DNA from: a virus
Strand: one strand, 5' to 3'
Virus record (IMG/VR): IMGVR_UViG_3300042451_001197
Location: 42,820-106,819 of that record
DNA: 64,000 bases
Shown: in pieces, positions 354 through 63,416 of the stretch
Position numbering within the stretch: position 1 is the first letter of the stretch
How the letters are laid out: each line of letters starts with the position of its first letter
The notes under the pieces: model-generated
Told to the model about the DNA's origin: nothing
What the model saw: only the letters and a program-made list of their open reading frames with translations
Databases searched by the model: none
Made by a program: the position numbers and the translations under genes

Positions 354-359
354 ATTTTT

Positions 360-695: not shown

Positions 696-1514
696 TTAAG
701 ATAAATATTGTGAAATTCTGTTTTGGGCAAATTCCACATAACTTTCCTGTATTTCAAAACCTATAAAATTTCTCTTTATCTCTTTACAAGCGACCCCTGT
801 TGTTCCAGCACCCATAAACGGGTCTAAAACCAAATCACCTTCCTTTGTAGATCCTTTAATGAAATATTTTACAAACTCTACAGGATATACCGCCACGTGA
901 TTATCCACAATTTTTTTTGATTCTGAAGATATGTTAACAAGTGTTGTTGGTAATGCCCCTAACGGATTTGGTGCCCAATCTTTATATTCTTTTAAATCAT
1001 CATCACCTTCATTTCTAGAATATCTTTTTTTGAGTGGTTTTTTCATTCTATTTATTGAAACTTCAGAATAAGGTGTTCTCATAGAATCAATATCAAAATA
1101 AAATCCTTTTTGTTTTGCAAACCAAAATATATACTCAACCCTATCACCAAATCTACTTCTATTTGGTAGACCTTTCATTTTATTCCAAAACAATCTCTCA
1201 AATAATTTAAGATTTGATTCTTTATGTAATCTTGAGATTAAATCGAATACATATGGATGTCTAAACCCATCTTCTACTTTATCGTTAATGTTAAGAATGA
1301 AAGAGCCCGTTGGTTTTAAAACTCTACATATCTCAACACAATAAGGAATAAACCAATCAACATAATCATCTGCTAATATACCTTTAAAATCGATATATGT
1401 TTTCATATCGGCATAAGGTGGTGATGTTATGACAAGATCAATAGAATTGTCAGGTAATTCTTTTAATAAATTTAATGAATCTCCTTGGTATATTTTATTT
1501 AAATCAAACTTCAT
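696..1514 (-). CDS. DNA methyltransferase, N4-C/N6-A beta class
   Basis: DLVITSPPY (motif IV) N-terminal and VLDPFMGAGTT (motif I) C-terminal; likely start MKFDLNK at 1514. Confidence 0.92.
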   Translation of the reverse strand: MKFDLNKIYQGDSLNLLKELPDNSIDLVITSPPYADMKTYIDFKGILADDYVDWFIPYCVEICRVLKPTGSFILNINDKVEDGFRHPYVFDLISRLHKESNLKLFERLFWNKMKGLPNRSRFGDRVEYIFWFAKQKGFYFDIDSMRTPYSEVSINRMKKPLKKRYSRNEGDDDLKEYKDWAPNPLGALPTTLVNISSESKKIVDNHVAVYPVEFVKYFIKGSTKEGDLVLDPFMGAGTTGVACKEIKRNFIGFEIQESYVEFAQNRISQYLS

Positions 1515-1556
1515 TAGATAAAATATAACTAAGATATATTTAAATGTCAAAAGTTA

Positions 1557-2051
1557 TTATTCTTCTATAGAACCAACACTAATTCTTATACCTATTTTGG
1601 TTCTAATCTCTTCATCAAAATACTCATTAATACAATCAACAACTTCACCTTCAACTTCCCAACCGTAATCCTCATTACTTAAAGCGTCATCTAGTGACAT
1701 TTGGTCATCTCCCTGAATATTCACCATACCATTTTTAGTATCAACTTTACAATCAACCAAGAAATCATTTTCGTTATGAACACTTTTTATTTTTGTTGTA
1801 AAAGTAAAATCATATGAACTATGATTACTTGGTTTTATATGATGTTCTTTACTAAGAAATTCACGAACCTCTTTTATTGCTTTATCCTTTCCAATATATT
1901 CAAATAACATATATTCTATATCAGATTCACTAATACCATTTTTCGCAGTATCAAAAAAATTTTTAAAACTTCTATCATAACCAGGTCCTGCGGTATCCCA
2001 ATACTTAAAGAAAAGTTTTTTATAAAAAGGTTTAACTTTGTTCTCTTCCAT
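1557..2051 (-). CDS. hypothetical acidic protein
   Basis: ORF track; TATTTAT upstream. Confidence 0.7.
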   Translation of the reverse strand: MEENKVKPFYKKLFFKYWDTAGPGYDRSFKNFFDTAKNGISESDIEYMLFEYIGKDKAIKEVREFLSKEHHIKPSNHSSYDFTFTTKIKSVHNENDFLVDCKVDTKNGMVNIQGDDQMSLDDALSNEDYGWEVEGEVVDCINEYFDEEIRTKIGIRISVGSIEE

Positions 2052-2117
2052 AATTTATAAATATAAATAAATTAACTATTTATTTATATTTATAAATAAA
2101 TTAACTATTTATTACAT

Positions 2118-2471
2118 ATGAAATACTTAATATCAGAAAATAAATTGGACAATCTAATATATGATTATGTTGTTGATATGTTTATGAACAATGAAGAGGG
2201 TGAGTTAAATTTTACTTACGATTATGATGAAGATGGTAATGAGACTGACGACGCAATTCAATTTTATTTTAGTGATTATGGTGAAGACTATGAAGCGTTT
2301 CGTTGGTATTCGGAAGAATATTTTGATGATGGTTGTGAAAGGTGTCCCATTGTAGAGTTAAGTCGTGAATTAAAGGATAATTTGGATTCAATGTTTTCCG
2401 ATAAATGGGAAAGTCAGTTTAAAAAATGGATGAATAATGAATTTAACATTTACGTTAAAACTATTCAGTAA
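2118..2471 (+). CDS. hypothetical acidic protein with MKYLISENK leader
   Basis: ORF track; TATTTAT just upstream of ATG. Confidence 0.75.
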   Translation: MKYLISENKLDNLIYDYVVDMFMNNEEGELNFTYDYDEDGNETDDAIQFYFSDYGEDYEAFRWYSEEYFDDGCERCPIVELSRELKDNLDSMFSDKWESQFKKWMNNEFNIYVKTIQ

Positions 2472-2473
2472 AA

Positions 2474-2791
2474 TTATCTTCTTTTAAAATACAATGAAGG
2501 TTCATAACCCGTAAGTTTATAATATTCTCTAGGGTCATATAATTTGGCGGAACAAAATTGTTGTTCAAGAGCGTTAAGATAATCGTCAATATAATAATTT
2601 ATTGCGTCCTGAACCGTCTCGTCTTCAGATTCACTTAAATAATCTTCAATATCTTCATCGGTAATTAAAAATTCTTCAACCTTTTCTACAGGATTTTTAC
2701 GATTAGGACATTTAATTACAGCAATAAATTTATGACCAGATAATTCTTCCATTATTAATTTATGTTGTGATTCAGTTATTATTATTTTCAT
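2474..2791 (-). CDS. hypothetical protein with MKIIITESQ leader
   Basis: ORF track; leader motif. Confidence 0.75.
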   Translation of the reverse strand: MKIIITESQHKLIMEELSGHKFIAVIKCPNRKNPVEKVEEFLITDEDIEDYLSESEDETVQDAINYYIDDYLNALEQQFCSAKLYDPREYYKLTGYEPSLYFKRR

Positions 2792-2792
2792 A

Positions 2793-3152
2793 CTATTTCA
2801 AATTCATAAGCTTAACACCAACCGTATTCCCAAAAGACCTTGTATCTACGCCAATATTGGATAACATATCTTTAATTTCATTTGATAATATGCTATGATG
2901 GAATCCATCAAGTTTCTTTTTTATTTTATATTCATCATTATAGTTAAATGTTCGAGGTAAAGGAATGTCAGTATAAACCTCAACAATCCAATTATAATAT
3001 TCATCGTCATTAGCGTGTCTTGATTTTATTTCAAACTCATAATCAAAATCTATGTCGGTTACTTTTTTAAGATAAGAATTAATTACGTTATTAATTGTTT
3101 TTCCAAATACAACGTCAAATGACTTATTTCCAAAATACGAATGTAATCCCAT
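2793..3152 (-). CDS. hypothetical protein
   Basis: ORF track; TATTTAT upstream. Confidence 0.65.
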   Translation of the reverse strand: MGLHSYFGNKSFDVVFGKTINNVINSYLKKVTDIDFDYEFEIKSRHANDDEYYNWIVEVYTDIPLPRTFNYNDEYKIKKKLDGFHHSILSNEIKDMLSNIGVDTRSFGNTVGVKLMNLK

Positions 3153-3164
3153 AACAATAAATAT

Positions 3165-3488
3165 TTACACGGCTTTAATAAAATCGATATCAATCTCGAA
3201 TTTATATTCTACAAATTTTTTAAAAATTGGAATCCAATGTTCGCTAAATAAACCATTCATAGTATCAATAAAATTGGTATCATAAATCTCAAGTACGTTA
3301 TCACCTGAATTATTATAATCTCTCGAATAATAAAAAACATCGGTATAATCACCACTTGTATCTATAACAAATAAATTATCTTCAAATTCCTCATCCTCCT
3401 CGGTATAAAGTTCATCCCAGTTATAATACTCCTCAATATATTTTAAAATAGAATCGTTTAATCTGTTTTCGGTTATAATGTACTTCAT
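3165..3488 (-). CDS. hypothetical acidic protein with MKYIITENR leader
   Basis: Internal ATG at 3488 follows TATTTAT; resembles 2118..2471. Confidence 0.7.
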   Translation of the reverse strand: MKYIITENRLNDSILKYIEEYYNWDELYTEEDEEFEDNLFVIDTSGDYTDVFYYSRDYNNSGDNVLEIYDTNFIDTMNGLFSEHWIPIFKKFVEYKFEIDIDFIKAV

Positions 3489-3501
3489 AATAATAAATAT
3501 T

Positions 3502-5007
3502 TTAGATTCCGGCAATTTTATCATAAACTACCGAGCCAATGTATTCCATTTGGTCTTTGAAATTGTCGGAACTACAACCTCCTTCAAAAATTTCATAATA
3601 TAACCTTTCATACAAAGTATTAATAACATTATATTTGTCTACTTTTTTTCCTGTGAAATGTCTAATTTCGTTATTTATTAAATCTTTATTAAAAAAATTA
3701 TTATTAACTTCATTAAAAAAACATTTTTTAAATCCTTCAATCATTTCTTTTTGTTTTTTTCCAAGTTCGTCTTCAAGTGTTTTTATATGTTCATTAAATT
3801 TTTCGTCATAATCATCTTCATCACCATCCAAAAGTTGTTGAATGCTATAAGTAATTTCACGCATCATATCAGATTCCGCCATATTATAAAAATCCTTAGA
3901 AATTTTATCAATATTTTCCACAAAAACTTTTTTAATTCCTTCGGTTACCTCATTAAGAAAGTCGTCATTAAAAATACCAATTCTTTCAGGACTATCGGCG
4001 TATAGTTTTTCATTTAAACAATAAAACCCTTCTTTACCAACACCATTAATTTCACTTAAAATATTATCAACCGTTTGTTTAAATTCAGGTCTTCCTTGAC
4101 CATACATTTGTTCATCAGATACCAAAATAAAATCATTTTTATTTTGTTCATTAATATATGGTTTAATGTTTAAAACTGAAATGGGGTTTTTAATGTCCTT
4201 ATCATTTTTATTAATTAAATATGAAACCAATGAACCTTCCTTAACATCTTCAATAATGTATTTAACGTTTTGACCTCTTTCTTTTCTACTTTCAATCTCT
4301 CTTTCTAATTTATCGATTTTTTTTGATACGGCCGCGGCATCGTCAAATTTTTTCTTCATTCCATCAAAATCAATATCTTCACCACGACTTAATTTTTCAT
4401 AATTTTGTTTTCTTAAAATATCTTCGGTATCTGGATTATTTTTAATTAAATCCTCATATTCTTTTTTTAACTTTTGAACTCTCTGTGATGATTCGTGACC
4501 CATTGTCATACAATTTGTCCAATTTCTATCTGTGTCCGAACCAGCAATATCATAAGGGTGTCTTGAAATAACAACCAATAAACCTCCAGAGTCAGATGTT
4601 AAAGCTTTCCTTGATTCATCCGAAACAAATTTTTTCATTAAGTTATCGGCTTTCATTCTTGTTAAAGCTTTACCAATTGTTGTCGTATTTTTTGATTCAC
4701 CAAATTTTACAATACCCTTAATATAATCCAATACCTGATATCCATTTTGTTTTAAAAAATCCTCAACCTCTTTTTGTATTGGTGATACAGGACCTTCTTT
4801 TTTTCCTTCAACCAAAGGAATATAAATTCTATAATAATTTTTATCGTGGTCGTATTTATCTCCCAAGGTTTTAAATATCTCAGAATATCTTTCTCTATTA
4901 AATTCTTTAACGTAAGGTCTATATTGTGATGGGGTTAATGCCTCATCAATATTATATAACGATAAAATATGTTTTTTTTCTTCTTCTGTAATTAGAAATT
5001 TTCCCAT
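3502..5007 (-). CDS. large hypothetical phage protein (SRHPYDIAG..W.NCM segment), MGKFLITEEE leader
   Basis: 501-aa ORF. Confidence 0.75.
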   Translation of the reverse strand: MGKFLITEEEKKHILSLYNIDEALTPSQYRPYVKEFNRERYSEIFKTLGDKYDHDKNYYRIYIPLVEGKKEGPVSPIQKEVEDFLKQNGYQVLDYIKGIVKFGESKNTTTIGKALTRMKADNLMKKFVSDESRKALTSDSGGLLVVISRHPYDIAGSDTDRNWTNCMTMGHESSQRVQKLKKEYEDLIKNNPDTEDILRKQNYEKLSRGEDIDFDGMKKKFDDAAAVSKKIDKLEREIESRKERGQNVKYIIEDVKEGSLVSYLINKNDKDIKNPISVLNIKPYINEQNKNDFILVSDEQMYGQGRPEFKQTVDNILSEINGVGKEGFYCLNEKLYADSPERIGIFNDDFLNEVTEGIKKVFVENIDKISKDFYNMAESDMMREITYSIQQLLDGDEDDYDEKFNEHIKTLEDELGKKQKEMIEGFKKCFFNEVNNNFFNKDLINNEIRHFTGKKVDKYNVINTLYERLYYEIFEGGCSSDNFKDQMEYIGSVVYDKIAGI

Positions 5008-5024
5008 AATAATAAATATAATAA

Positions 5025-5060
5025 AAAATAAAAAACCCCACCTGTATATGAAGGTGGGGA
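5025..5060 (-). terminator. repeated intrinsic terminator (copies near 5941-5974 and 6446-6481)
   Basis: CCCCACC-loop-GGTGGGG type hairpin followed by a T-run on the - strand, then the TATTTAT motif of the next gene. Confidence 0.75.
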
Positions 5061-5081
5061 CATATTAAATTATTTTTTTAT

Positions 5082-5543
5082 TTAAACATCATTAAAACTT
5101 GATAATATACTATTTGTAATTTTAAGAGCCTGAGATTCATTTCCTGATATATCTAATTGTCCTCTTTTACCATATTTGTCTTTATAAAAGAAAAATATCC
5201 CACTTTGTGTTTTAGTAAATCTAATGGAGGCAAATTCATCAGGAGTACCATTTACAAATACTGACCATTGTAATGGTTTATTATAATCCCAACATCTTGT
5301 ATCTCTAGTAACATCACCAACTTCCTTTACATTAACTTTTATTGACGACGCATAAAATTCGTTATTTGGATTTGGTTTCCAATGAGGAAATTTATTAGAT
5401 ATATTACCGCAATCAAAACCCTTTAAAAAATTGGATAATGATTTTACTGAAGATGGTAAAGTGGAAGATTGTTCTTCATTTATAACTCTTTTAATGAGTT
5501 TTACTAAATCAGATTCAGTTAATCTTATAACTCTTTTTTTCAT
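5082..5543 (-). CDS. hypothetical protein with MKKRVIRLTESDLVKLIKRVINE leader
   Basis: ORF track; leader shared with 5995..6417. Confidence 0.8.
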   Translation of the reverse strand: MKKRVIRLTESDLVKLIKRVINEEQSSTLPSSVKSLSNFLKGFDCGNISNKFPHWKPNPNNEFYASSIKVNVKEVGDVTRDTRCWDYNKPLQWSVFVNGTPDEFASIRFTKTQSGIFFFYKDKYGKRGQLDISGNESQALKITNSILSSFNDV

Positions 5544-5643
5544 AATATTATTTTTATATATAAATATATCGTAATCTCAAAAAAAAAGGGGGCGGGGGGA
5601 TTGAGATCGAACGAAGTGAGTTCGGTCGGTTCGGGGTTACGAA

Positions 5644-5922
5644 TTAACATCGTCTATCAAAATACAACTCAGTTATCTCAACATAAAACATATCTTGCAG
5701 TTCCTTCATTGTTCCCTTATAATCAAATCCTTCAATGTCATAAAAATGGGGATGAAGGTCATCCATCATATAATATAAAAATCTTCTTTCATAGTCATTA
5801 AAAGAATTAAATTTACAACGGTTAACATATTTGGCCGATTCCTTAAAAGCCTCCTCAACCAAATCATACCTTCTCAATAACCACATTCGATTACTTTGTG
5901 ATTCTGTTATAATGAATTTCAT
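5644..5922 (-). CDS. hypothetical protein with MKFIITESQ leader
   Basis: ORF track. Confidence 0.75.
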   Translation of the reverse strand: MKFIITESQSNRMWLLRRYDLVEEAFKESAKYVNRCKFNSFNDYERRFLYYMMDDLHPHFYDIEGFDYKGTMKELQDMFYVEITELYFDRRC

Positions 5923-5994
5923 ATAGATAAATATATTAACAAATAAAAAACCCCACCTATATAAGATGGGGGGATTTAATTAATATCTAATTTA

Positions 5995-6417
5995 TTATTT
6001 TTGGTATTCAGTTGCCGAAAATACGGAAAAAAATTCAGTTAAATCGTCTTTAACTTTTTGAGCGTTATCAAATGATATTGGTATACTTGTTAAACTATTA
6101 AAGTTATATCCTCTATTTTTCCACCATATTTTAATTTCAGGTGTTTTAATTTGAGCTTCTATTGAAATCTCAGGTTTAACATTATTAATTGATACCGAAT
6201 ATAAATAATTTGGTGATGTAAACCAATTTAACGCTTGAGCATTTTTCTGTTCTGGATAATTATATTTAAAGTCACGTAATGTTGGTTTTGGTTTTACGGT
6301 CATCATAACTTTAACAAAATTTTCCCATAAAAGATTGTTATCTGTAGATTGTTCTTTAATCACCCTTTTAACCAGTTTTATCAAATCGGACTCAGTTAAT
6401 CTTATAGTTTTTTTCAT
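5995..6417 (-). CDS. hypothetical protein with MKKTIRLTESDLIKLVKRVIKE leader
   Basis: ORF track. Confidence 0.8.
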   Translation of the reverse strand: MKKTIRLTESDLIKLVKRVIKEQSTDNNLLWENFVKVMMTVKPKPTLRDFKYNYPEQKNAQALNWFTSPNYLYSVSINNVKPEISIEAQIKTPEIKIWWKNRGYNFNSLTSIPISFDNAQKVKDDLTEFFSVFSATEYQK

Positions 6418-6498
6418 AATAATATTTTTATATATAAATATATTAAAAAATAAAAAACCCCACCTGTATAAGAGAGTGGGGATTTAATAATAAATACA

Positions 6499-6777
6499 TT
6501 ATTGATTATCCCTATATATGTTTCTAATATACTCTTGAAAATGGTCATCAATAAAAGACATTAAATCATCCCTATCAATCTCATTCCAATGTAATCCTTC
6601 CTTATCTCCCAAAAATACATTCTTATAAACCAAATCTTTAATATCATTATAGAATTCATCCTCATCGTAATACATATCAGGATTACTTGATAAATTATCA
6701 ATTAGTTTTTTAATCTGACCATATCTTCTTTTATATATAAGGTCATTAAATTGTCTTTCGTTAATAATAATTTTCAT
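6499..6777 (-). CDS. hypothetical protein with MKIIINERQ leader
   Basis: ORF track. Confidence 0.7.
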   Translation of the reverse strand: MKIIINERQFNDLIYKRRYGQIKKLIDNLSSNPDMYYDEDEFYNDIKDLVYKNVFLGDKEGLHWNEIDRDDLMSFIDDHFQEYIRNIYRDNQ

Positions 6778-6789
6778 ATTCTTATTTTA

Positions 6790-7200
6790 ATCATAAATAC
6801 AAATATAAGAATTTCCTTAAAATTTTTCCAGAATTTTTTTTTCAGTTTTACACGCCTTTAGAAATATGGGGGATTTTTCTTAAAAATTTTTTCCAGATTT
6901 TTTTTACATATACTTTGCAAAAGGGATTAAGGCGGGTTTTTACAAGTCAAAATGTCATATATAGGGGGGGATACGGGGGAGGGAGGGGGTATACCCCCAT
7001 ATACCCCCACTCAGAGGGGAGGTATGTCATACTATTTGGTCTTTTAACCCCCCTACCAATTAGGTCTTCTTATAAGTAAGATATGGGGGTGATGTAATTA
7101 CAATGACATAACCAAATAAACTTATCAACATATAATCCACCATGCCAAATATTGTTAATAAGTTATAATGTTAATAACTATTAATACATTTTTATTTGGT
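6790..7200. other. non-coding strand-switch region with G/C tracts (candidate origin, terminus or packaging region)
   Basis: Direct repeats AAATTTTTCCAGA near 6819 and 6884; G7-G5-G3-G5 at 6964-6989; palindrome GGGGGTATACCCCC at 6985-6998. Confidence 0.4.
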
Positions 7201-7230
7201 GGGGGAGAATAAAGTTTGTATCTTTGTTAT

Positions 7231-7635
7231 ATGAAAAGTTCTACTAAACTAAACACCTTAACTAATAAACAATTAACGAAGGTACTGAAAAGTTCCCTTC
7301 AGTATTGTATGGTTACATTTGGGGTTAATAAAAGAAAGAGAACTACTCTTGGTATTAAGATATATGGTAACATGCTTGGGGATAAGAGATGTGCTGGTTG
7401 TTATGACCCCATTGATAATAGTATATCATTATTTCTTAATGCTAATAAAACCGTTGGGGAGTTACTAAGAACATTTGTTCACGAGTATACACATTATCTT
7501 CAACCTTGTAGAACTAAGTATATGGAACTGCTTAATACTCACGGGTATGATAATCATCCATTTGAGATTGAGGCATATTCTGTTGAGAAGAAGTATGGGA
7601 GAAAGTTATTAAACGTTATTAAAAAAGAAGTGTAA
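7231..7635 (+). CDS. zincin-like metallopeptidase domain protein
   Basis: FVHEYTH..HPFEIEA; ATG at 7231 follows TATCTTTG. Confidence 0.7.
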   Translation: MKSSTKLNTLTNKQLTKVLKSSLQYCMVTFGVNKRKRTTLGIKIYGNMLGDKRCAGCYDPIDNSISLFLNANKTVGELLRTFVHEYTHYLQPCRTKYMELLNTHGYDNHPFEIEAYSVEKKYGRKLLNVIKKEV

Positions 7636-7687
7636 TATTATCTTTAATAAATTTGTTTATGTCAAAATAATTTAGTATCTTTGTATT

Positions 7688-7806
7688 GTCGGTGGTGATA
7701 ACCGAGACGGGTTCGATGGGGGTTCTTATCGCAGAGGGTATACTCCTTCACGCCCCAACTTTTATTTTACATATATAAGCAGGGTGGAGTATACTCGGTC
7801 CCCATC
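7688..7806 (+). ncRNA. candidate structured ncRNA
   Basis: No ORF; TATCTTTG at 7676; stems GATGGGG/CCCCATC and GGGTATACTCC/GGAGTATACTC; 5' hairpin TCGGT..ACCGA. Confidence 0.45.
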
Positions 7807-7894
7807 TTTAACAAATGATTACAATACAAAGGTATGAAAAAAAAATGACATAAACAAATTTTTTTATTTACAAATTATTTCGTATCTTTGTATT

Positions 7895-8224
7895 ATGGAA
7901 GATGTTGTAATCAGAATGGGAGTTAAATATCTTAAATCAAAAAGATTTAATGTTAATCAGCAATATGGATTTTACAAATTCTATGAATCTATAAACCATA
8001 ATGAAATTGAGTTAAGTAAGAGTTGTTCATTCATTGATATCTATTCTTCCATATATAATGAACTTAAATATATATTATCTACGGATGATGATACTATTAA
8101 GGTTATTGTAAAATCATTTCTTTCAGATAGTCTTTCAATACCGATGGATGAATTAACTGATACAATAGTTTGTTTTCCATTCAACATATCACTTTCAGGA
8201 ACATCCTTTACAATTAATGGATAA
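7895..8224 (+). CDS. hypothetical protein
   Basis: ORF track; TATCTTTG upstream. Confidence 0.65.
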   Translation: MEDVVIRMGVKYLKSKRFNVNQQYGFYKFYESINHNEIELSKSCSFIDIYSSIYNELKYILSTDDDTIKVIVKSFLSDSLSIPMDELTDTIVCFPFNISLSGTSFTING

Positions 8225-53836: not shown

Positions 53837-54334
53837 ATGGAATGTATATTATGTGGTAAAGAAACTAACAACCCTAAATTTTGTAGTAGGAGTTGTGCGG
53901 CTAAACATACTAATAAAATTTACCCTAAAAGAAAAACAAAAAAAACTTGTACAATATGTGGGGACCCTGTTAAAAGTTATAAACATAGCCATTGTGAGAA
54001 ACATCATAATGAATATGTTGAAAATAAAATTGAGACATTAAAAAATTTACCATTAAAAAGTTTTTGGAATAAAAAGTCATTAGAGTATTTACCTAAATCA
54101 TCTAAAAACGTTTATATTAGGAACTTTGCGAGAAGTCATTTTAAATATTTAACTGAAAAACCTTGTTATAATTGTGGGTATAATAAACACGTGGAATTGT
54201 GTCACATTAAACCTATTTCAAAATTTGATGAAGATTCAAAACTATGTGAGATTAATTGTGAAGATAATTTAATACAATTGTGTAGAAATTGTCATTGGGA
54301 ATTTGACAATGGTTTATTAAAAATTAATAAGTAG
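53837..54334 (+). CDS. HNH endonuclease with Zn ribbons
   Basis: C..C, FCSRSC, ELCHIKPI..N...NL..LC.NCH.EFD; likely start MECILCG. Confidence 0.85.
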   Translation: MECILCGKETNNPKFCSRSCAAKHTNKIYPKRKTKKTCTICGDPVKSYKHSHCEKHHNEYVENKIETLKNLPLKSFWNKKSLEYLPKSSKNVYIRNFARSHFKYLTEKPCYNCGYNKHVELCHIKPISKFDEDSKLCEINCEDNLIQLCRNCHWEFDNGLLKINK

Positions 54335-54408
54335 TGGTCCCGACAGGATTCCAACCTGTAACCCTCGTCTTAGAAGGACGATGCTCTATGCAGTTGAGCT
54401 ACGAAACC
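54335..54408 (-). tRNA. tRNA-Arg(TCT) with C19/G56 swap
   Basis: Cloverleaf; anticodon loop CT-TCT-AA; D loop CTGCAT; T loop TTGGAAT. Confidence 0.9.
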
Positions 54409-54414
54409 AATTTT

Positions 54415-54595
54415 AAGTCAGGACAGGATTCGAACCTGTATAATATAACAGCACACAATGAAGCAATTGGGTAGATGCCAACGATTTGTTATATCTATAT
54501 TCTACCTCGCCTTAAGCTTACCTTTCCGCTTTAGCGTCTAACCAAGCATCCAATAACCTATCAGAAGTTATTGTGACACATTCCGCCACCTGACT
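54415..54595 (-). ncRNA. tRNA-like RNA, same shell as 50380, larger inserts
   Basis: AGTCAGGTGGCGGAAT...TAGACGCT...ACAGGTTCGAATCCTGTCCTGACT. Confidence 0.65.
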
Positions 54596-54599
54596 ATTT

Positions 54600-54679
54600 G
54601 AGGATGAGAAGTCCTCTGTGTTGGTAGTCCAGTCATTCATACTACTGCTCGAATCTTCCTTTCTCAAGGGAACAACACT
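54600..54679 (-). ncRNA. structured RNA with kissing loops
   Basis: Stems GTGTTG/CAACAC, TTCC/GGAA, GTAGT/ACTAC, GAGGA/TCCTC; loops TGAGAA and TTCTCA are complementary. Confidence 0.6.
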
Positions 54680-54756
54680 TTTGCAACCTTTACAACATAC
54701 TACAATTTAGTATGAATGGGACATTCTGTTACAACGCTTTACCCACCAACGTTTTG

Positions 54757-54828
54757 TACTCCCAACGAGAATCGAACTCGTCTCTCATCCGTGAAAGGGA
54801 TGCGTCCTAACCGATAGACTATGGGAGC
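54757..54828 (-). tRNA. tRNA-Glu(TTC)
   Basis: Cloverleaf; CATCC-CTTTCAC-GGATG. Confidence 0.92.
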
Positions 54829-54835
54829 ATATCCG

Positions 54836-54922
54836 CGGAGGCTTAGGGATTCGAACCCCAGTTACAATTTCTTGTAAGTCAGTTTTCAAGACTGATGCGT
54901 TAAACCACTCTGCCAAACCTCC
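54836..54922 (-). tRNA. tRNA-Ser(TGA)
   Basis: Cloverleaf with long variable arm; TCAGT-CTTGAAA-ACTGA. Confidence 0.92.
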
Positions 54923-58074: not shown

Positions 58075-58413
58075 ATGTTAGTAACTATCAATGATGTTCA
58101 GTTTAAAGTTAAACTATTAAACACCCAAGAAGAGACTAGAAAAGGAATGATGGGTAAAGATTTTGATAAATCTTTTAGTGGAATGTTATTCGATATGGGT
58201 AAAGGTGAACATTGTTTTTGGATGAAAAATTGTATTATACCTCTCGATATCATCTTTATTAAAGATGATAAGATTTCAAAAATTCACCACAAATGTCCTC
58301 CTTGTAAAACAGAAGATTGTAAAAACTATTGTGGTAATGGTGAATATGTTCTTGAAGTAAAGGGCGGAACTTGTAAAAAATTAGGTATTAAGGTTGGTGA
58401 CTTAGTTGAATAG
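58075..58413 (+). CDS. DUF192 family protein
   Basis: GMM..GMLF..FWMKN..PLDIIFI..VLEV.GG..GIKVGD. Confidence 0.85.
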   Translation: MLVTINDVQFKVKLLNTQEETRKGMMGKDFDKSFSGMLFDMGKGEHCFWMKNCIIPLDIIFIKDDKISKIHHKCPPCKTEDCKNYCGNGEYVLEVKGGTCKKLGIKVGDLVE

Positions 58414-59863
58414 GTCTATAGTAGTACTTATCATTTCCACAATTAAAAATTCTATTATACCCCATTTCGGTCATTATTTGATGTTCGGTTTTATTTTTAT
58501 CGGCACCATTCTTAACTAATTTATGTTTCTGATAGTTAACACGATTTTCTCTAACCCCATTAACAACATAATGGTAATTAGGTTTTGTTCTGCCAACATA
58601 ATTAAAACCCAATTTTTTATATAATTCACCACTAGCCCAAGAAATATCGCAATATGATATCACCCCTAAAGGTTTATATTCATTAAGAAATGAATTAAAT
58701 AATTTTGACGCCCCTCCAATAACTGAGGTATTTAATTTATTACAAAATCTAACTAACTCATATTCACCATCTTTCACATTTTTATTCAAAACTTTTCTCA
58801 TTTTCATAAAAGTCATAAGTGAAACTAATTCGTTATTATAATATAACCCATAATTAATATTAGTATTAACAAACCCTTGTAAGTGATTTAGAGTTAAAAA
58901 GTGTTTAACAATTTCTTTATCCGTTATTTTTCTAATTTCAGTTTTACGAGCATAAATTTTTTCAGACTTATTTAAAAGATTTTTTATTATAGATTCAACG
59001 ATTTCTCTTTTCTTATCGAAATCATCTTCAAATATATGAATTAATCTTATATTATTTTTTTCACATAATAATGTTTTATTAATGTGGTAATCTTTATCAA
59101 CGAACAAATCGGAATGCCATCTTACTCCGTTGAATTCAAATCCCAACTTTAATTCAGGTATGTAAATATCAATTTCTTTTCTTTCTACTTTGAAGGAGGT
59201 TATAACCTCATTTTCATACACTTCACTTATTATTTTCCCCAATAAAATTTCTTTACCCGATACATTACTATCGATTGGTTTACAAATCGGACAAACTTCG
59301 GTACCTACAATTTTTCTATTTGAGAATATTCCTTTAGGTAATTTATTATCACCATGCAATTGACATCTAATTATGAAATTTTTATCGTCTTGATCAACAA
59401 CATCCGGATTTTTTTTCTTAAAATTTTCAAATGCAGTTTTTTTTATTTTCTCTCGTTCGATCGAACCTCTACTTTCTTTCCATAGTTCACTTTGTCTAAA
59501 ATGTTCAGTTCCCCATTTTTTTAAACTTGTTTGTTTTGATTTTTCTTTGAAAATTTTTGTCTTATACGGATTATTACCTCCGAATACCTCAATTAATTTT
59601 TTCTCTCTTTTTTCTTTACTACATTTAGTGGAACAACTATAATATCCACCATTATTAATGGATTTATTATATCTCCTTAATTGTATCTTGACATCTTTAC
59701 CACAAACATCACATTTGGCATCGACAATTAAATGACTTTGGGGGTTAACTAATTCTATGGGTAATTTATTAACTTGATTGAAAACAACGGGTATGTTATT
59801 TTTTCTATAATAATCACATACATTCCCAGTAATTCTTATTTCGAGTTCTTTAGTTAAAAGCAT
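58388..59863 (-). CDS. free-standing homing endonuclease, Hef-like PD-(D/E)xK
   Basis: IDIYIPELKLGFEFNG..WHS..HIFED, then YARK..NHLQG..ELVRF..GGASKL; likely start MLLTKE. Confidence 0.75.
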   Translation of the reverse strand: MLLTKELEIRITGNVCDYYRKNNIPVVFNQVNKLPIELVNPQSHLIVDAKCDVCGKDVKIQLRRYNKSINNGGYYSCSTKCSKEKREKKLIEVFGGNNPYKTKIFKEKSKQTSLKKWGTEHFRQSELWKESRGSIEREKIKKTAFENFKKKNPDVVDQDDKNFIIRCQLHGDNKLPKGIFSNRKIVGTEVCPICKPIDSNVSGKEILLGKIISEVYENEVITSFKVERKEIDIYIPELKLGFEFNGVRWHSDLFVDKDYHINKTLLCEKNNIRLIHIFEDDFDKKREIVESIIKNLLNKSEKIYARKTEIRKITDKEIVKHFLTLNHLQGFVNTNINYGLYYNNELVSLMTFMKMRKVLNKNVKDGEYELVRFCNKLNTSVIGGASKLFNSFLNEYKPLGVISYCDISWASGELYKKLGFNYVGRTKPNYHYVVNGVRENRVNYQKHKLVKNGADKNKTEHQIMTEMGYNRIFNCGNDKYYYRPIQLSHQP

Positions 59864-59867
59864 AGTA

Positions 59868-59897
59868 AATGGTTTACTATAAATATAGTAAACCATT
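59868..59897. promoter_or_regulatory. perfect 14-bp-arm palindrome enclosing the TATTTAT promoter of the endonuclease
   Basis: AATGGTTTACTATA-AA-TATAGTAAACCATT. Confidence 0.75.
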
Positions 59898-59916
59898 CAT
59901 TTGTGTCCACCGATTT

Positions 59917-61386
59917 TTAAAAATATTTTCTTAAATGTTTTCTTATCGATTCTCTTAAATTCCGACTATTTTCTTCAATTTTTTGCTTCAATACATTCAC
60001 AAATTCGGATTGAACCATCTTCGTGAACTTAACATAGGGAGCATCTTCAGCATTAGGATCATATTTATATTTCCCTTCAGGTGGTCTTTTTGACCTTCCG
60101 AGATAATTTAAACTTGAAATGTTCGTAATACATTTGTGTCCCCCACTATTAGCCTGAATCAAATCCCAAGCATTTATGGTGACCCCATCAAGTAAAGTTT
60201 TTTCTTCTTCAGTCAAATCTTTAAATGGTTTATCCATAATTTCTTCAAGTCTTGATATTGATTCTTCATTTTTTGAATTAAACTTATCTCCGTATAACGC
60301 TTTAAAATCTTTGAATGTAAATCCTACCGACTCTTCACCGAATTCTTTTGAGCTTTCAGATATCCACTTAATAGTTGATAATGGAATTTCTTTTTCTTTT
60401 AATTTACCTTCCCATTTACTTAAAACCTCTTGCGCAATTTCGCCAAGATTTACTCCTTTAAGTTCTCTTTCTTTTTTAAATGGATTACAAGACGCTTGTA
60501 CTAAACCTAACGGCCAAGCAATAACTAAAAAGTCAGCTTCAGGATTGTTTTTAAATGGTGTATATCTATCATAAGAACCAGGAGAAGTCATCTTACCCCC
60601 ACCATACTGAACAATTATATTCCCATCAACTTTAACATTTGGGTGGGATTTCATCTGTTCAATATATGATTCTTTATTTTTTTGTAGTTGTGGAATTGTT
60701 GCGTAACCTTTTTCAGTCATTAAACGTTTTATGTTCAATAATATGCTAAGTAAAGATGGTTTTGAGGTCATTACAAGTTCCTCTAAAAAACCTGGTTTGT
60801 TTTTAAATGCTAATAATAATTTGTTTGTCACCAAACCCATTTTCATTTTATTAACCCCTGCCGATGAATCTTTATCTAATTTGAATAAATAATTTATAAC
60901 CTCGTCCACACTAATATCTTTTGACGCATAGTTCGCCGAATCTACCGTTGATATTAAAGTTAAGTCTTCGTTCGGGAATATTTCTTTTGGTGAAACAATT
61001 TGTGATATAGTTTCAACGTTTGATCTTGACGGCCTAAAACTTGTTGACGTTCCTTTTTCAACACCGGCTTGTCTATCGTGATGGTCTGTATGTATAATAA
61101 ACATTGGTTTCCCGTGAGCAAAATCAACTAAAACAGGCATAACATCACCACTCGCGTCATTCTTTTTTACGGCAAATTCTTTATCCCCGTATTGAATGAC
61201 GTGAGCATCGATAACTTTAATTCCGTTATTTTCGAGATACTCTCTAATAGCTATTGCGGTAGTTACTCCGTCAAGCTAAAGATCCTGGTGGAAGTAGATT
61301 TCCGCTTTTTTGTAGCGTTCTGCGAGAGATTTAATCCCTCTTAATCCACTTTCCGCCAGGACCGATTTGTTTTTTCTGGTAGTCAT
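59917..61386 (-). CDS. DHH-family phosphoesterase with in-frame TAG at codon 37 (CTT TAG CTT)
   Basis: ATG at 61386 in frame: ...IYFHQDL*LDGVTTA..LVDF..TDHH..SGGHK. Confidence 0.8.
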
Positions 61387-61399
61387 AGTTTATATTGTT

Positions 61400-62296
61400 T
61401 TATAATAAATATTTAGTTAATGAAAATAATTCGTCCAATGTTATAGAACATTTGTCTTGTTTTCTACAATTTTCGCTCTCCGTTAAAACTTCTAAATTTT
61501 CTTTAGCCGAAATTATTTTAGGTGGTACATTATTTTTAAATCCTTCAAAAATACTAAACTTATGGTCAATATGATAAAATCCTCTACCAATTTTTAACTG
61601 ATTAGGATTTATCGATTCTTTATGTAATTTATAATTTTTTGTTGTTAAAGACCTAACCTGTTTTTTATAATTTTCTATTTTTTTAATTTCTTCATCAGTC
61701 AATGAAAGTTTTAAAGAATCATAGTAACACTTTTCACATATGTATTTATTATTTTTTCTACTAAAGTTAAGATATTTCTTTATCAATAAGTGATTGTTAT
61801 TACATTTAACTTTCATTAAACTATTTTTACCATTTATTTTGACAATTTCAACTAAATTAAAATTTTTATCTTCTACAATTTTTTTTAAAAAAAATTCGTC
61901 TATTATGGGTTGATTTTTCTTTATTTTAACTTCGTTTTTTTTGGACGGGTTATTATCCCCAATCCACTTTTTAGAAAAAAAATCTTTCAATTTATTTAAT
62001 TTTTCAGTTTCTAAAAAATCCTCCCATTTTCTATGGTCTCCAAATCTACCATTACCTTCACCGGTACATTGGCATGGTCTACAAATTTGAGTCTGAAAAC
62101 TCATTTTTTCTTTTTTCAAATGACAAGCAGATATTGAATGTATTTTGTTAGGATATTTACAATTTTGGTTATCGCAAACCCAAATAACTTTAAAATTAGA
62201 TATTCCAGGTTTTTTACAGGTGATATTTTCATCAACTAATTCATAGTGAATTAATTTTTTTTTATTAAATCTAGGTTTCCAAATACTTTTTATCAT
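61400..62296 (-). CDS. free-standing HNH endonuclease
   Basis: Zn ribbons, GEGNGRFG, C-terminal HIDH..NL..EN..K. Confidence 0.8.
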   Translation of the reverse strand: MIKSIWKPRFNKKKLIHYELVDENITCKKPGISNFKVIWVCDNQNCKYPNKIHSISACHLKKEKMSFQTQICRPCQCTGEGNGRFGDHRKWEDFLETEKLNKLKDFFSKKWIGDNNPSKKNEVKIKKNQPIIDEFFLKKIVEDKNFNLVEIVKINGKNSLMKVKCNNNHLLIKKYLNFSRKNNKYICEKCYYDSLKLSLTDEEIKKIENYKKQVRSLTTKNYKLHKESINPNQLKIGRGFYHIDHKFSIFEGFKNNVPPKIISAKENLEVLTESENCRKQDKCSITLDELFSLTKYLL

Positions 62297-62369
62297 AAAG
62301 GAGGTTTTAATTATAAATATTTGTTTTTTATAAAAAACCCATCTAAATCGTTATGGAAGTAGTTATTTT

Positions 62370-63416
62370 TTAAATTAATTTACCTATTGCAGATGGTCCA
62401 CCGATTAAATTAATTAAATCACCAATAACGTCTACGTTAGATTTATTTGTTGTTTGTTGAGTTTGGGTTGGTGTTTCGGGGGTAGTCTCTTGTTTAAATA
62501 AATTACTCAAATCAGTATTTCTAAAGTCTTGTAATGCCAATGCCTGACCTTCAGGTGTTTTATTGTATTCAGCGATTTTAGCATCTAAATCAGGAACTTT
62601 TTGAGCCAATTCTTCAGGAGAACCTGTAAAATTAGTCAAACCTATTTTATCTAAAAGTCTTAAATACCATTTACTGCGTCTAAGTAAAGATCTTGTTGCC
62701 GGATTACCTCCAAATAATCTTGGTGCTCCAGCCGCAAATTTTTCTAAAAATGTTCTATCCGCTGAGGTCATATATTTAAGATAAGACCATTTACCGGTTC
62801 CGTGACCTCTAAACATTTTAGGTCTAACACCTGATTTATATTCTTTAGTTGCCTTTACTATCATATCAACCCATTCTTCAATAGTTTTAACAAACCCTTT
62901 ACCTCCAGGAACTCTTTTAATTAATTCAACTAATTTAGGCCCTAAAGTACCGATTTCTTTGAACAATTTAACCAAAATAGGATATTTTGAAGCCGCCATA
63001 GCCCATTCAGTTGGAGTTTTTAATCCTTTTAAAAATTTAGCCCCCTTTCCTCCGGCCTTTAAAGCACCAATTATTGGTTTACCTACTAGGTCACCAACAT
63101 ATGGGACTGCAGATATTAAAGACATCAATCCAAATAATTTATCTCCTTGTCTAAAATAATCAAGAGCGTTAATAATATCAACAACTCCTGTCGGGTCAAA
63201 AACCCCAACAATATCTCCAAGAGTATTCCACCATCTCGCTTCATTTATTTTTTTTGAATTTTTTGGTGAAAATTCTTTAATAAATTCAACCACAAATTTT
63301 TTATCACTTGAAGATAATTTATCCCATTTTTCTTCAAGTATTTTGAATTGCTCTTCCTTATAGATTTCAACTAATCTAAATTTTAGTTGTGTCTCAGTTA
63401 ATATTGTTTGTTTCAT
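62370..63416 (-). CDS. probable virion-associated protein with pre-toxin TG-like segment, MKQTILTETQ leader
   Basis: DIVGVFDPTGVVDIINA..GD..SLISAVPYVGD. Confidence 0.55.
   Translation of the reverse strand: MKQTILTETQLKFRLVEIYKEEQFKILEEKWDKLSSSDKKFVVEFIKEFSPKNSKKINEARWWNTLGDIVGVFDPTGVVDIINALDYFRQGDKLFGLMSLISAVPYVGDLVGKPIIGALKAGGKGAKFLKGLKTPTEWAMAASKYPILVKLFKEIGTLGPKLVELIKRVPGGKGFVKTIEEWVDMIVKATKEYKSGVRPKMFRGHGTGKWSYLKYMTSADRTFLEKFAAGAPRLFGGNPATRSLLRRSKWYLRLLDKIGLTNFTGSPEELAQKVPDLDAKIAEYNKTPEGQALALQDFRNTDLSNLFKQETTPETPTQTQQTTNKSNVDVIGDLINLIGGPSAIGKLI

What the first reader, a model, noticed from the sequence alone, without database searches (positions are those of the whole stretch)
61270..61386. 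Candidate programmed 6-nt ribosomal stop-hop (CTT-TAG-CTT) in a DHH catalytic motif
Seen: the ATG at 61386 is in frame with the 407-aa ORF and reads MTTRKNKSVLAESGLRGIKSLAERYKKAEIYFHQD-L-*-L-DGVTTA. Codons 36-38 are CTT TAG CTT (61281-61273). Removing 6 nt restores H-x-D-x-D-G, DHH motif I, which the downstream-only ORF lacks. Just 5' of the take-off codon the mRNA is unusually GC-rich and can form a ~20-bp stem: GGUCCUGGCGGAAAGUGGAUU (61363-61343) with AAUCUACUUCCACCAGGAUC (61300-61281). Knowledge: matched take-off and landing codons around UAG, helped by a 5' stem-loop, is the T4 gene 60 bypass logic, where the bypassed insert travels with the adjacent endonuclease MobA. Inference: this is a minimal bypass element that destroys the target of the adjacent HNH (61400-62296) while keeping the enzyme functional.
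Basis: partly seen in the sequence, partly recalled or inferred. Interest (0 to 1): 0.9.

Follow-up and report, generated by a model that had tools for sequence, protein, structure and literature searches.

The report
Natural ribosome stop-hop in phage gene
A lake phage enzyme gene carries six extra bases, including a stop codon, inside its catalytic motif, and about 58 wild versions indicate that ribosomes jump from one leucine codon to the next over the stop, a decoding trick so far reported only from engineered genes.

Summary
In detail: the minus-strand gene reads ATG 61386 ... CTT TAG CTT (61281-61273) and then stays open to 59917.

- **Insert.** 78 homologous loci read HQDLDG without the 6 bases.
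- **Not an error or a dead gene.** About 58 contigs from many lake metagenomes carry an insert at this exact codon. It is always Leu(CTN)-stop-...-Leu(CTN), with all three stop codons and never a sense codon.
- **Gap lengths.** Gaps are 6, 8, 9 or 11 nt. The 8- and 11-nt gaps shift the frame, so stop-codon readthrough cannot rescue them.
- **Selection.** Downstream ORFs are intact, with dN/dS of 0.04-0.25.
- **Stem.** A 19-bp stem ends right at the take-off codon. It occurs only in insert alleles, is 98% paired, and has two compensatory pairs.
- **Endonuclease link.** A specific HNH-like endonuclease gene sits upstream in 25 of 58 insert contigs and in 0 of 75 insert-free loci. Comparison with a near-isogenic contig shows a co-conversion tract.

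Best reading (about 0.78): a programmed stop-hop carried by a homing-endonuclease cassette, analogous but not homologous to T4 mobA/gene 60. No protein has been measured. I found no published natural stop-hop. This scan noted the same gene family before on other DNA (e1-5837998).

The parts
61279..61386 (-). First coding segment of the DHH phosphoesterase gene: ATG 61386-61384 to the take-off Leu codon CTT 61281-61279 (36 codons, ...RYKKAEIYFHQDL)
   Evidence: Homologous to the N-termini of insert-free relatives.
61281..61363 (-). 5' stem-loop. The long helix has arms 61363-61343 and 61300-61281, and its 3' arm ends at the take-off codon. It closes two small, less conserved hairpins.
   Evidence: Fold z = -5.5. 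MFE is -36 to -45 kcal/mol in insert alleles against -3 to -23 in 46 distinct insert-free alleles. 19 pairs are 97.9% paired in 30 distinct alleles, with two GC<->AU compensatory pairs; slid controls give 37-51%. Synonymous variation is suppressed in the 3' arm only.
61283..61286 (-). Invariant AGGA (Shine-Dalgarno-like), 1 nt 5' of the take-off codon and 7 nt 5' of the landing codon; also part of the stem's 3' arm
   Evidence: Invariant columns A96 G97 G98 A99 in A1/A4. The Gln codon is CAG in 28 of 28 insert alleles against CAA in 43 of 49 insert-free alleles. Any role is inferred.
61273..61278 (-). The 6-nt coding gap: stop codon TAG 61278-61276 plus landing Leu codon CTT 61275-61273. Decoding is inferred to resume at GAC 61272-61270.
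   Evidence: Absent from 78 homologous loci. Relatives have CTT TGA CTT, CTT TGA CTG, CTG TGA CTT, CTT TAA CTT and 8-, 9- and 11-nt versions.
59917..61272 (-). Second coding segment of the DHH gene (DGVTTA... to the stop at 59919-59917), carrying DHH motifs II-IV
   Evidence: Open for 451 codons. dN/dS against L084 is 0.056. DHH fold.
61400..62296 (-). 298-aa HNH-like free-standing homing endonuclease gene, directly upstream of the DHH gene
   Evidence: Invariant H242, D244, H245, N267 and N276. The best structural match is the Gme HNH nicking endonuclease, Z 4.8, which is weak. The C-terminal 85 aa are 42% identical to an annotated homing endonuclease of T4-like phages. Homologues of >50% identity lie only beside insert alleles.
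62338..62361 (-). Non-coding, insert-free copy of the motif DNA (reads YFHNDLDG, followed by a T run), about 45 nt upstream of the HNH start codon. Either the left junction of the cassette or an operator.
   Evidence: The same degenerate element is upstream of the HNH gene in L049, L083, L090, L096, L098, L100, L105 and L121, whose flanking genes differ.
60780..61386 (-). Co-conversion tract: the part of the DHH gene imported together with the HNH gene
   Evidence: Window against L036 (no HNH, no insert). Identity is 97-100% upstream of the HNH gene. Inside the DHH gene it rises from 38/60 to 60/60 between 61313 and about 60770.

Best explanation
**What it is.** The DHH phosphoesterase gene is decoded by a programmed 'stop-hop', a short translational bypass.

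**Proposed mechanism (inferred).**
1. The ribosome translates 36 codons and places peptidyl-tRNA-Leu on CUU (61281-61279). UAG then sits in the A site, followed by C, which is a poor termination context.
2. Instead of terminating, the peptidyl-tRNA lets go of CUU. The mRNA moves 6 nt and the same tRNA re-pairs with the next CUU (61275-61273).
3. Decoding resumes at GAC, so nine bases give one leucine. The catalytic motif H-Q-D-L-D-G is made intact.
4. The forward movement is probably driven by the 19-bp stem. Its 3' arm ends at the take-off codon, so re-zipping behind the ribosome pulls mRNA out of the exit channel.
5. The invariant AGGA, 7 nt before the landing codon, may help to set the landing site.

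**Origin.** The insert, the stem and the recoded 5' part of the gene arrived as one cassette with the upstream HNH-like homing endonuclease. The insert most likely makes the carrier's own copy of the conserved target uncuttable without adding residues to the enzyme.

**Shown versus inferred.**
- Shown: the anatomy, its conservation, its mobility, and selection on the downstream frame.
- Inferred: the hop itself, the roles of the stem and AGGA, and the endonuclease's target.
For: 1. **Constant design.** An unbiased N9 scan at this site found only Leu-stop-Leu: CTTTGACTT 17, CTTTAGCTT 12, CTTTGACTG 9, CTGTGACTT 7, CTTTAACTT 1. No sense codon was seen.
2. **Frame-shifting gaps.** A variable-gap scan found 8-nt (CTT TGACG CTA or CTG), 9-nt (CTC TGAGGG CTT) and 11-nt (CTT TGAGGGAA CTT; CTT TGACGGGT CTT) gaps in true homologues. 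Each has a CTN codon immediately 5' of the resume GAY codon. The ORFs in the resume frame are intact at 436-764 aa.
3. **Purifying selection downstream of the stop.** Window against L084: dS 0.176, dN 0.010. Across 16 pairs dN/dS is 0.04-0.25. The out-of-frame pairs give 0.14 and 0.08.
4. **Codon choice.** The flanking Leu codons are always CTN. Insert-free alleles mostly use TTA (35 of 52 distinct alleles).
5. **The stem.** It is present only in insert alleles. Across 30 distinct alleles 97.9% of the pair positions form a standard pair, with two compensatory pairs. Synonymous entropy is about 0-0.4 bits for five of the six 3'-arm codons; the sixth, the His codon (0.91 bits), is the one that co-varies with the 5' arm. 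Entropy just downstream of the landing codon is 0.9-1.7 bits.
6. **A lineage that lost the stem.** The L102 group also has TAA at an invariant Ser.
7. **No recoding of the genetic code.** There is no suppressor tRNA. TAG ends 12 of 136 long ORFs in the 107-kb record.
8. **Cassette.** HNH association, co-conversion gradient, scattered phylogeny, target-like remnant upstream of the HNH gene.
9. **Literature.** Stop-hops with matched codons flanking a stop were made in synthetic constructs (PMC5009743). Pairing of mRNA leaving the ribosome is proposed as the forward driver in gene 60 (bioRxiv 10.1101/2024.12.09.627546).
Against: - No protein or ribosome data exist, so the hop is inferred from comparative genomics alone.
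- In synthetic E. coli constructs stop-hops were described as low-level. High efficiency here would have to come from the stem and context, which is untested.
- The host, its tRNA-Leu set and its release factors are unknown.
- For the 8- and 11-nt gaps, a -1 shift at the take-off codon would also reach the resume frame without meeting a stop. It would add 3-4 residues.
- Stem covariation rests on only two pairs, because the arms are nearly invariant. Relatedness of the alleles inflates the shuffle statistics.
- Because the cassette moves horizontally, part of the divergence used for dN/dS may predate acquisition of the insert.
- An earlier check of 'the same claim on other DNA' in this scan is marked 'part of it fell'. 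Which part fell is not stated.
Confidence: 0.78

Rival explanations
1. The stop codon is read through by a near-cognate or suppressor tRNA. The result is an active enzyme with two extra residues (D-L-x-L-D) in motif I.
For: The 6- and 9-nt gaps are in frame. 'Stop followed by C' is a leaky context (own knowledge). The 2016 review notes that stop-hops and readthrough differ only by two residues in the product.
Against: - All three stop codons occur at the site, so no single suppressor or reassignment fits.
- There is no suppressor tRNA, and TAG is a normal stop in this genome.
- The 8- and 11-nt gaps are out of frame.
- The two 'inserted' positions never vary in amino acid, and the Leu codons are always CTN.
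- No insert-free or sense-codon 2-residue insertion exists among 78 + 58 loci.
- The insertion would separate the two metal-binding Asp residues of DHH motif I (family knowledge).
Confidence: 0.07
2. The gene is split. Translation ends at the stop and restarts at the next codon, guided by AGGA 7 nt upstream. A 36-residue peptide and a 452-residue protein then assemble, as the split topoisomerase halves do in MobA elements.
For: - AGGA lies at a typical Shine-Dalgarno distance from the landing codon.
- MobA- and MobE-type insertions do split genes into interacting halves.
Against: - The 'start' would be CTT, CTG or CTA, never ATG, GTG or TTG. The first such in-frame codon in the window is 44 codons downstream, at 61140.
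- The landing codon always belongs to the same CTN Leu family as the take-off codon, which reinitiation does not require.
- The split would cut the DxD motif between two chains, one of only 36 residues.
Confidence: 0.06
3. The gene is inactivated: a pseudogene tolerated after endonuclease invasion. The stem has another role, for example at the DNA level or in regulating the HNH gene.
For: The L102 lineage does look dead, with a second stop at an invariant Ser. Homing endonuclease invasions can damage genes.
Against: - The downstream ORF is intact in all other complete alleles; only L093 breaks off, after about 200 aa. dN/dS is 0.04-0.25.
- The insert design is conserved rather than decaying.
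- The first 36 codons stay in frame and homologous in all 32 alleles.
Confidence: 0.04
4. The 6 nt are removed or altered at the RNA level (editing or splicing), or they are an assembly error.
For: None found.
Against: - The same insert is in dozens of independent assemblies.
- Contigs from two metatranscriptome libraries span the site with no gap and no change at 61273-61281. DNA carry-over in those libraries cannot be excluded.
- No Rfam family matches the region above chance.
Confidence: 0.02

Closest known systems
Phage T4 gene 60 translational bypass carried by the mobA homing-endonuclease element (Huang 1988 and Bonocora 2011 from my own knowledge; Manning & Atkins, bioRxiv 10.1101/2022.08.31.505936)
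   Same: - An HNH-type endonuclease gene lies directly upstream of a gene whose first roughly 40 codons end in a take-off codon followed by a stop, with a matched landing codon.
- There is a 5' stem-loop and a small SD-like element before the landing site.
- The insert sits in a conserved metal-binding motif.
- The insert persists in lineages that have lost the endonuclease, and the endonuclease can be replaced by another type (LAGLIDADG in L091).
   Different: - The gap is 6-11 nt rather than 50 nt, so there is no room for a take-off stem-loop in the gap.
- The codons are Leu CUN rather than Gly GGA.
- The target gene is a DHH phosphoesterase, not a topoisomerase.
- The gene is not split into two ORFs with added tails.
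- There is no detectable sequence similarity to T4 MobA or gene 60, so the origin is independent.
- A nascent-peptide signal has not been established.
Synthetic 'stop-hops' in E. coli (review PMC5009743, its reference 54; from memory Weiss, Dunn, Atkins & Gesteland 1987, CUU UAG CUA)
   Same: The same logic and almost the same letters: a Leu CUU codon, a stop, and a matching Leu codon, so that nine nucleotides specify one amino acid.
   Different: - Those were engineered, low-level events without stimulators.
- Here the site is natural, conserved in about 58 contigs, lies in an enzyme's catalytic motif, and has a dedicated conserved stem.
- The review states that no natural occurrence was known.
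prfB (RF2) programmed +1 frameshift site CUU UGA C (own knowledge; mentioned in PMC6815119)
   Same: The commonest variant here (CTT TGA C...) has the identical 'shifty stop' heptamer and an SD-like element just upstream.
   Different: The +1 frame closes after four codons (HQDL-DLTE-stop; read), so a +1 shift gives no product.
Translational bypass elements ('byps') of Magnusiomyces capitatus mitochondria (as summarised in PMC5009743)
   Same: Short inserts inside conserved genes are bypassed between similar take-off and landing codons.
   Different: - Those are mitochondrial and number 81 per genome.
- They are described as independent of mRNA context, and they use an unused codon in the A site.
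- Here there is a single site with a specific stem and an endonuclease cassette.

Membership tests
Programmed translational bypassing (gene 60 kind) | [quoted passage not shown] | tested here: met
   CTT/CTT in the window. CTT, CTG or CTC at take-off and CTT, CTG or CTA at landing in all 32 distinct alleles, including the out-of-frame gaps.
Programmed translational bypassing (gene 60 kind) | Stop or slow-to-decode codon immediately 3' of the take-off codon | tested here: met
   TAG, TGA or TAA in every allele, never a sense codon.
Programmed translational bypassing (gene 60 kind) | The gap is not represented in the protein: one chain from two segments | not testable with these tools
   Only indirect evidence. 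78 homologues lack the residues. The 8- and 11-nt gaps need a jump to keep the frame without added residues. The downstream frame is under selection.
Programmed translational bypassing (gene 60 kind) | [quoted passage not shown] | tested here: met
   A 19-bp helix ends at the take-off codon. It is specific to insert alleles and shows covariation. Its function is inferred.
Programmed translational bypassing (gene 60 kind) | Nascent-peptide signal | tested here: inconclusive
   Insert alleles have N-termini 2-4 residues longer, with basic residues about 30 residues from the P site. Insert-free alleles are basic there too. RYKKA(K/E)IYFHQDL is native to the family.
MobA / gene 60 element (homology) | Sequence relationship to T4 MobA and its bypass cassette; insertion in the topoisomerase large-subunit gene | tested here: not met
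   tblastn of 14 HNH homologues against T4 bases 1-8000 gave nothing better than E = 0.5. The host gene is a DHH phosphoesterase.
DHH/DHHA1 phosphoesterases | Motifs I (DxD), II (D), III (DHH) and IV (GGH), and the two-domain fold | tested here: met
   Invariant H29, D31, D33, D82, D95-H96-H97 and G409-G410-H411. Foldseek hits are PggH, GdpP, RecJ and NrnA with probability about 1. Sequence models are weak.
HNH (His-Me finger) homing endonucleases | beta-beta-alpha-metal fold with H...N...N/H residues; free-standing gene beside its target | tested here: inconclusive
   - Invariant HxDH...N...N.
- The best VIA match is the Gme HNH nicking endonuclease at Z 4.8, with further HNH nucleases below it. 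All are weak.
- Foldseek gave nothing significant and Pfam gave no hit.
- 42% identity over 85 aa to an annotated homing endonuclease.
Stop-codon reassignment or suppressor-tRNA decoding | One stop codon read as sense genome-wide, usually with a matching tRNA | tested here: not met
   All three stops occur at the site. TAG ends 12 of 136 long ORFs, and there are only three tRNAs (Arg, Glu, Ser).
prfB-type +1 frameshifting | A shift at CUU UGA C opens a long +1 frame | tested here: not met
   The +1 frame stops after four codons (sequence).

The most novel reading that the evidence does not exclude
This locus belongs to a natural family of very short (6-11 nt) translational bypass sites. It includes the first natural 'stop-hop', in which nine bases give one residue. 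The jump is driven by a conserved stem that re-forms behind the ribosome. The family evolved independently of T4 gene 60 as the self-immunity device of a homing-endonuclease cassette. If so, bypassing is a recurrent solution in phages rather than a single curiosity.
Probability: 0.72. Interest if true: 0.9.

Novelty: new variant of a known kind. Interest (0 to 1): 0.85.

Why it matters
- **A known gap in the field.** For decades translational bypassing had essentially one well-studied natural example, T4 gene 60, plus the mitochondrial byps. A 2016 review states that in-frame stop-hopping was shown only in synthetic constructs and that no natural occurrence was known.
- **A minimal natural system.** The gap is only 6 nt, there is one stem, and there is no room for a take-off hairpin. 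Dozens of natural variants exist, with different gap lengths, all three stops, and different codon pairs. Together they form a ready-made mutational series.
- **A direct test of a current model.** These variants allow a test of the proposal that pairing of mRNA leaving the ribosome drives forward movement.
- **Gene annotation.** Such genes are called as truncated ORFs or pseudogenes.
- **Mobile-element biology.** A second, independent endonuclease cassette appears to have solved self-immunity in a catalytic motif through recoding rather than through an intron or intein.

Tried and rejected
- **Rfam.** The scan of 59800-62500 gave only chance-level hits.
- **Suppressor tRNA or code change.** None found.
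- **Sequence-based family assignment of the HNH protein.** Pfam gave no hit. NCBIfam gave only noise. A PDB profile search gave nothing, a single-sequence PDB search gave only DciF at E 0.1, and Foldseek gave nothing under E 0.1.
- **PDB profile search with the DHH alignment.** Nothing relevant; the fold search was needed.
- **Homology to T4 MobA.** None.
- **Longer gaps.** The scan for gaps of 35-65 nt at the site returned only unrelated sequences. In the 4-34 nt scan, 11 of the 20 new loci were also chance matches.
- **+1 frameshift at CUU UGA C.** Rejected because the +1 frame closes after four codons.
- **T4-like capsid search.** The Gp23 search in the record found nothing, and the controls did not ring either, so it is uninformative.
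- **Tree.** The careful tree search did not finish, so the quick tree was used.
- **Earlier check that partly fell.** I could not find out which part fell.
- **Transcript ends and levels.** The RNA-library contigs cannot show a transcript end or an expression level. The contig end at 61393 is not interpreted.
Full report
**1. The observation**

On the minus strand, an ATG at 61386 opens a frame reading 36 codons (...RYKKAEIYFHQDL). Then come CTT (61281-61279), TAG (61278-61276) and CTT (61275-61273). The same frame then runs on for 452 codons (LDGVTTA...) to the stop at 59919-59917.

The first ATG, GTG or TTG after the TAG in that frame is 44 codons downstream, at 61140.

The RNA 61400-61250 folds at -42.4 kcal/mol against -24.2 for shuffles (z = -5.5). 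A long helix, 61363-61343 with 61300-61281, closes two small hairpins and ends at the take-off codon.

**2. The gene**

- Sequence models give only weak DHH signals: Pfam DHH E = 0.015 and RecJ TIGR00644 E = 0.0017.
- An alignment of 19 insert-free homologues has these invariant columns: H29, D31, D33, D82, H93, D95-H96-H97-D98 and G409-G410-H411. These are DHH motifs I-IV.
- An AlphaFold model (mean pLDDT 74) was searched with Foldseek. Its best matches were almost all DHH-family enzymes: PggH, GdpP, RecJ, RecJ-Cdc45, NrnA and DhhP, at probability about 1.
- The stop therefore lies between the two Asp residues of motif I.

**3. Relatives without the insert**

Of 80 homologous loci fetched from viral contigs, 78 read FHQDLDG (a few have HMD, HKD or DTD) with no extra codon. 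Only L001 (98% identical) and L049 (65% identical) have GAY CTT TAG CTT GAY GG.

**4. The insert is a conserved family**

- Exact-pattern scans found the TAG form in 5 viral and 9 metagenome contigs.
- A scan that left all nine bases between the two Asp codons free found 38 viral contigs. Pooled with the contigs from the exact-pattern scans, the nine bases were always Leu-stop-Leu: CTTTGACTT 17, CTTTAGCTT 12, CTTTGACTG 9, CTGTGACTT 7, CTTTAACTT 1.
- No sense codon occurs in the middle, all three stop codons do, and the flanking Leu codons are always CTN. Insert-free alleles mostly use TTA at this position (35 of 52 distinct alleles).
- A variable-gap scan then found true homologues with other gap lengths:
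  - 8 nt: CTT TGACG CTA or CTG (L136, L145);
  - 9 nt: CTC TGAGGG CTT (L138, L139, L143);
  - 11 nt: CTT TGAGGGAA CTT (L132, L134, L135) and CTT TGACGGGT CTT (L133).
- In each, a CTN codon stands immediately 5' of the resume GAY codon, and the ORF in the resume frame is intact at 436-764 aa.
- The 8- and 11-nt gaps shift the frame, so stop-codon readthrough cannot rescue them. A Leu-to-Leu jump explains all four gap lengths with one rule.
- A -1 shift at the take-off codon would formally also reach the resume frame in the 8- and 11-nt cases, adding 3-4 residues. It does nothing for the 6- and 9-nt cases, and CUU-to-CCU re-pairing is poor.
- No genuine homologue has a gap of 35-65 nt.

**5. The gene is alive**

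- dN/dS over the segment downstream of the stop is 0.04-0.25 in 16 pairs of insert alleles. For example, window against L084 gives dS 0.176, dN 0.010 and ratio 0.056.
- For the out-of-frame pairs the ratio is 0.14 (L132/L133) and 0.08 (L136/L145).
- Caveat: the cassette moves horizontally, so part of the divergence may be older than the insert.
- One lineage (L102 and four more contigs) has lost the 5' arm of the stem. It also carries TAA at the invariant Ser of RSNVET and a change at the invariant Glu. It is probably a recent pseudogene.

**6. The stem**

- The minimum free energy of the about 105 nt up to the landing codon is -37.5 (window) and -40.8 (L049). In 46 distinct insert-free alleles it is -3.4 to -23.0.
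- The longer-gap alleles fold at -36 to -45.
- On 30 distinct insert alleles, the 19-pair helix is 97.9% paired, against 37-51% when the partner is slid by 1-3 columns.
- Two pairs change on both sides: GC to AU in 10 sequences and in 2 sequences. 0 of 500 shuffles reach the observed pairing or covariation score.
- Relatedness inflates such shuffle counts, and most columns are invariant, so covariation support is modest. Conservation is striking, however.
- The six codons before the take-off codon are ATC, TAC, TTT, CAY, CAG and GAC. Their synonymous entropy is about 0-0.4 bits. The exception is the His codon, which co-varies with the 5' arm.
- The codons just after the landing site show 0.9-1.7 bits. 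Insert-free alleles use ATA/ATT, TAT, TTT, CAY, CAA and GAT.
- AGGA (61286-61283) is invariant. It lies 1 nt before the take-off codon and 7 nt before the landing codon. In the 9- and 11-nt gaps a GAGG-like run also lies in the gap.

**7. No alternative code**

The 106,819-bp record (29% GC; CheckV completeness 36%, so probably a jumbo phage) has three tRNA genes: Arg-TCT, Glu-TTC and Ser-TGA. Long ORFs end in TAA 105 times, TGA 19 times and TAG 12 times.

**8. RNA and reads**

- The stretch occurs in runs of 17 studies of lake or freshwater metagenomes.
- Contigs from two RNA-seq metatranscriptome libraries (X19, 61172-61393; X20, 61075-61321) span the site without a gap and with no change at 61273-61281.
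- This argues against removal at the RNA level. DNA carry-over cannot be excluded.

**9. The cassette**

- **The endonuclease gene.**
  - The ORF 62296-61400 (298 aa) has invariant HxDH...N...N residues.
  - Its best structural match is the Gme HNH nicking endonuclease (Z 4.8). Phage GVE2 HNH and Cas9 HNH domains lie below it. All are weak.
  - Its last 85 residues are 42% identical to an annotated free-standing homing endonuclease of T4-like Klebsiella phages.
  - It shows no similarity to T4 MobA.
- **Association with the insert.**
  - Homologues of more than 50% identity lie directly upstream of the DHH gene in 20 of 49 contigs with a 6-nt gap and in 5 of the 9 with longer gaps.
  - They lie upstream in none of 75 insert-free loci.
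  - Three insert-free loci have a distant relative (26-32% identity) together with a diverged motif region, VVIVTH(M/Q)DLDGVVSA.
- **Loss and replacement.**
  - L089 is the L049 arrangement without the HNH gene but with the insert and stem.
  - In L091 a LAGLIDADG gene (PF14528, E = 8e-12) takes the HNH gene's place.
- **Import from a diverged donor.** Against L036, which has neither HNH nor insert:
  - identity is 97-100% up to the HNH gene;
  - the HNH gene itself is absent from L036;
  - identity inside the DHH gene rises from 38/60 to 60/60 over about 600 bp. This is the signature of co-conversion.
- **Mobility.** On a quick maximum-likelihood tree of the C-terminal part, insert alleles are scattered among insert-free ones. 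Well-supported branches force at least 7 changes, and parsimony gives 12.
- **Target-like remnant.**
  - About 45 nt upstream of the HNH start lies an insert-free, non-coding copy of the motif DNA (62361-62338, reading YFHNDLDG, then a T run).
  - This marks the motif as the junction of the element, or as an operator. It supports the inference that the endonuclease's target is this motif, but does not prove it.

**10. Mechanism proposed**

Shown: the anatomy, its conservation, its mobility, and selection on the downstream frame.

Inferred:
1. Peptidyl-tRNA-Leu on CUU faces a stop followed by C.
2. The stem's 3' arm is partly inside the ribosome at that moment.
3. Re-zipping of the stem pulls the mRNA forward, and the tRNA re-pairs with the next CUN.
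4. Decoding resumes at GAY.

This matches the 'driver' model for gene 60. It also matches the 'shifty stop' behaviour of CUU-stop in E. coli (own knowledge; PMC5009743). The +1 frame closes after four codons, so a prfB-like shift gives nothing.

**11. What is known**

- Four further full-text searches found no later report.
- The mobA/gene 60 element shares three evolutionary habits with this one: the insert is kept after endonuclease loss, the endonuclease can be replaced, and insertion is into a metal-binding motif.
- This scan has noted the same DHH family before on another genome (e1-5837998) and similar short gaps in other phage genes. I reached the 6-, 8-, 9- and 11-nt series before reading those notes.
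- One related claim is marked as partly fallen on checking, without detail.

**12. Verdict**

This is a real, conserved recoding site. It is most likely a natural stop-hop carried by a homing-endonuclease cassette (confidence about 0.78). It is untested at the bench.

Noticed in passing
window 58388-59896 (-) and 59898-59911: A second homing endonuclease gene lies directly downstream of the DHH gene: 502 aa, PHROG 3339 'homing endonuclease' at E = 4e-99, with a weak, sub-threshold Pfam match to DUF7487 (E = 4e-4). Between it and the DHH stop, GGTGGACACAAA(TG) copies the gene's own GGGGGACACAAATG at 60144-60131 (the GGH motif). So both ends of this gene seem to have been invaded at catalytic motifs, each leaving a target-like remnant (lead from note e1-6039238).
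   Followed up: partly
L102, L110, L119, L127, L128: This insert-bearing lineage (CTT TGA CTT) has lost the 5' arm of the stem. It has TAA in place of the invariant Ser of RSNVET. It is probably a recently dead copy.
   Followed up: partly
L093 (about 600 nt after the hop site): The DHH frame breaks off after about 200 residues and unrelated sequence follows. This could be another inserted element or a chimeric contig.
   Followed up: no
L025, L038, L081, L103, L145: Some homologues are 585-805 aa instead of about 470. In the two insert-free ones (L025, L038) the DHH part aligns over the first roughly 435 residues, so the extra length appears to be a C-terminal extension of unknown nature. The gap-bearing ones are 585 aa (L081) and 714-764 aa (L103, L145).
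   Followed up: no
L055 (insert-free): This allele has the longer N-terminus typical of insert alleles (MKIKKNTQVIIESGLR...) but no insert and no stem (MFE -6.5). It may be a precursor or a revertant.
   Followed up: no
L091 867-1541; L132 5837-7519: Other endonuclease types lie next to insert-bearing alleles: a LAGLIDADG gene in L091, and a 561-aa DUF7487 + Mom-like protein on the opposite strand in L132.
   Followed up: partly
window 61393: A 223-nt contig from the two RNA-labelled libraries X18 and X19 ends 7 nt upstream of the DHH start codon. X18 is flagged as probably DNA. Contigs cannot show a transcript end, so this is only a hint of a possible 5' end.
   Followed up: no
window 54334-54922 (-): A cluster of three tRNA genes (Arg-TCT, Glu-TTC, Ser-TGA). 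None reads Leu or a stop codon.
   Followed up: no
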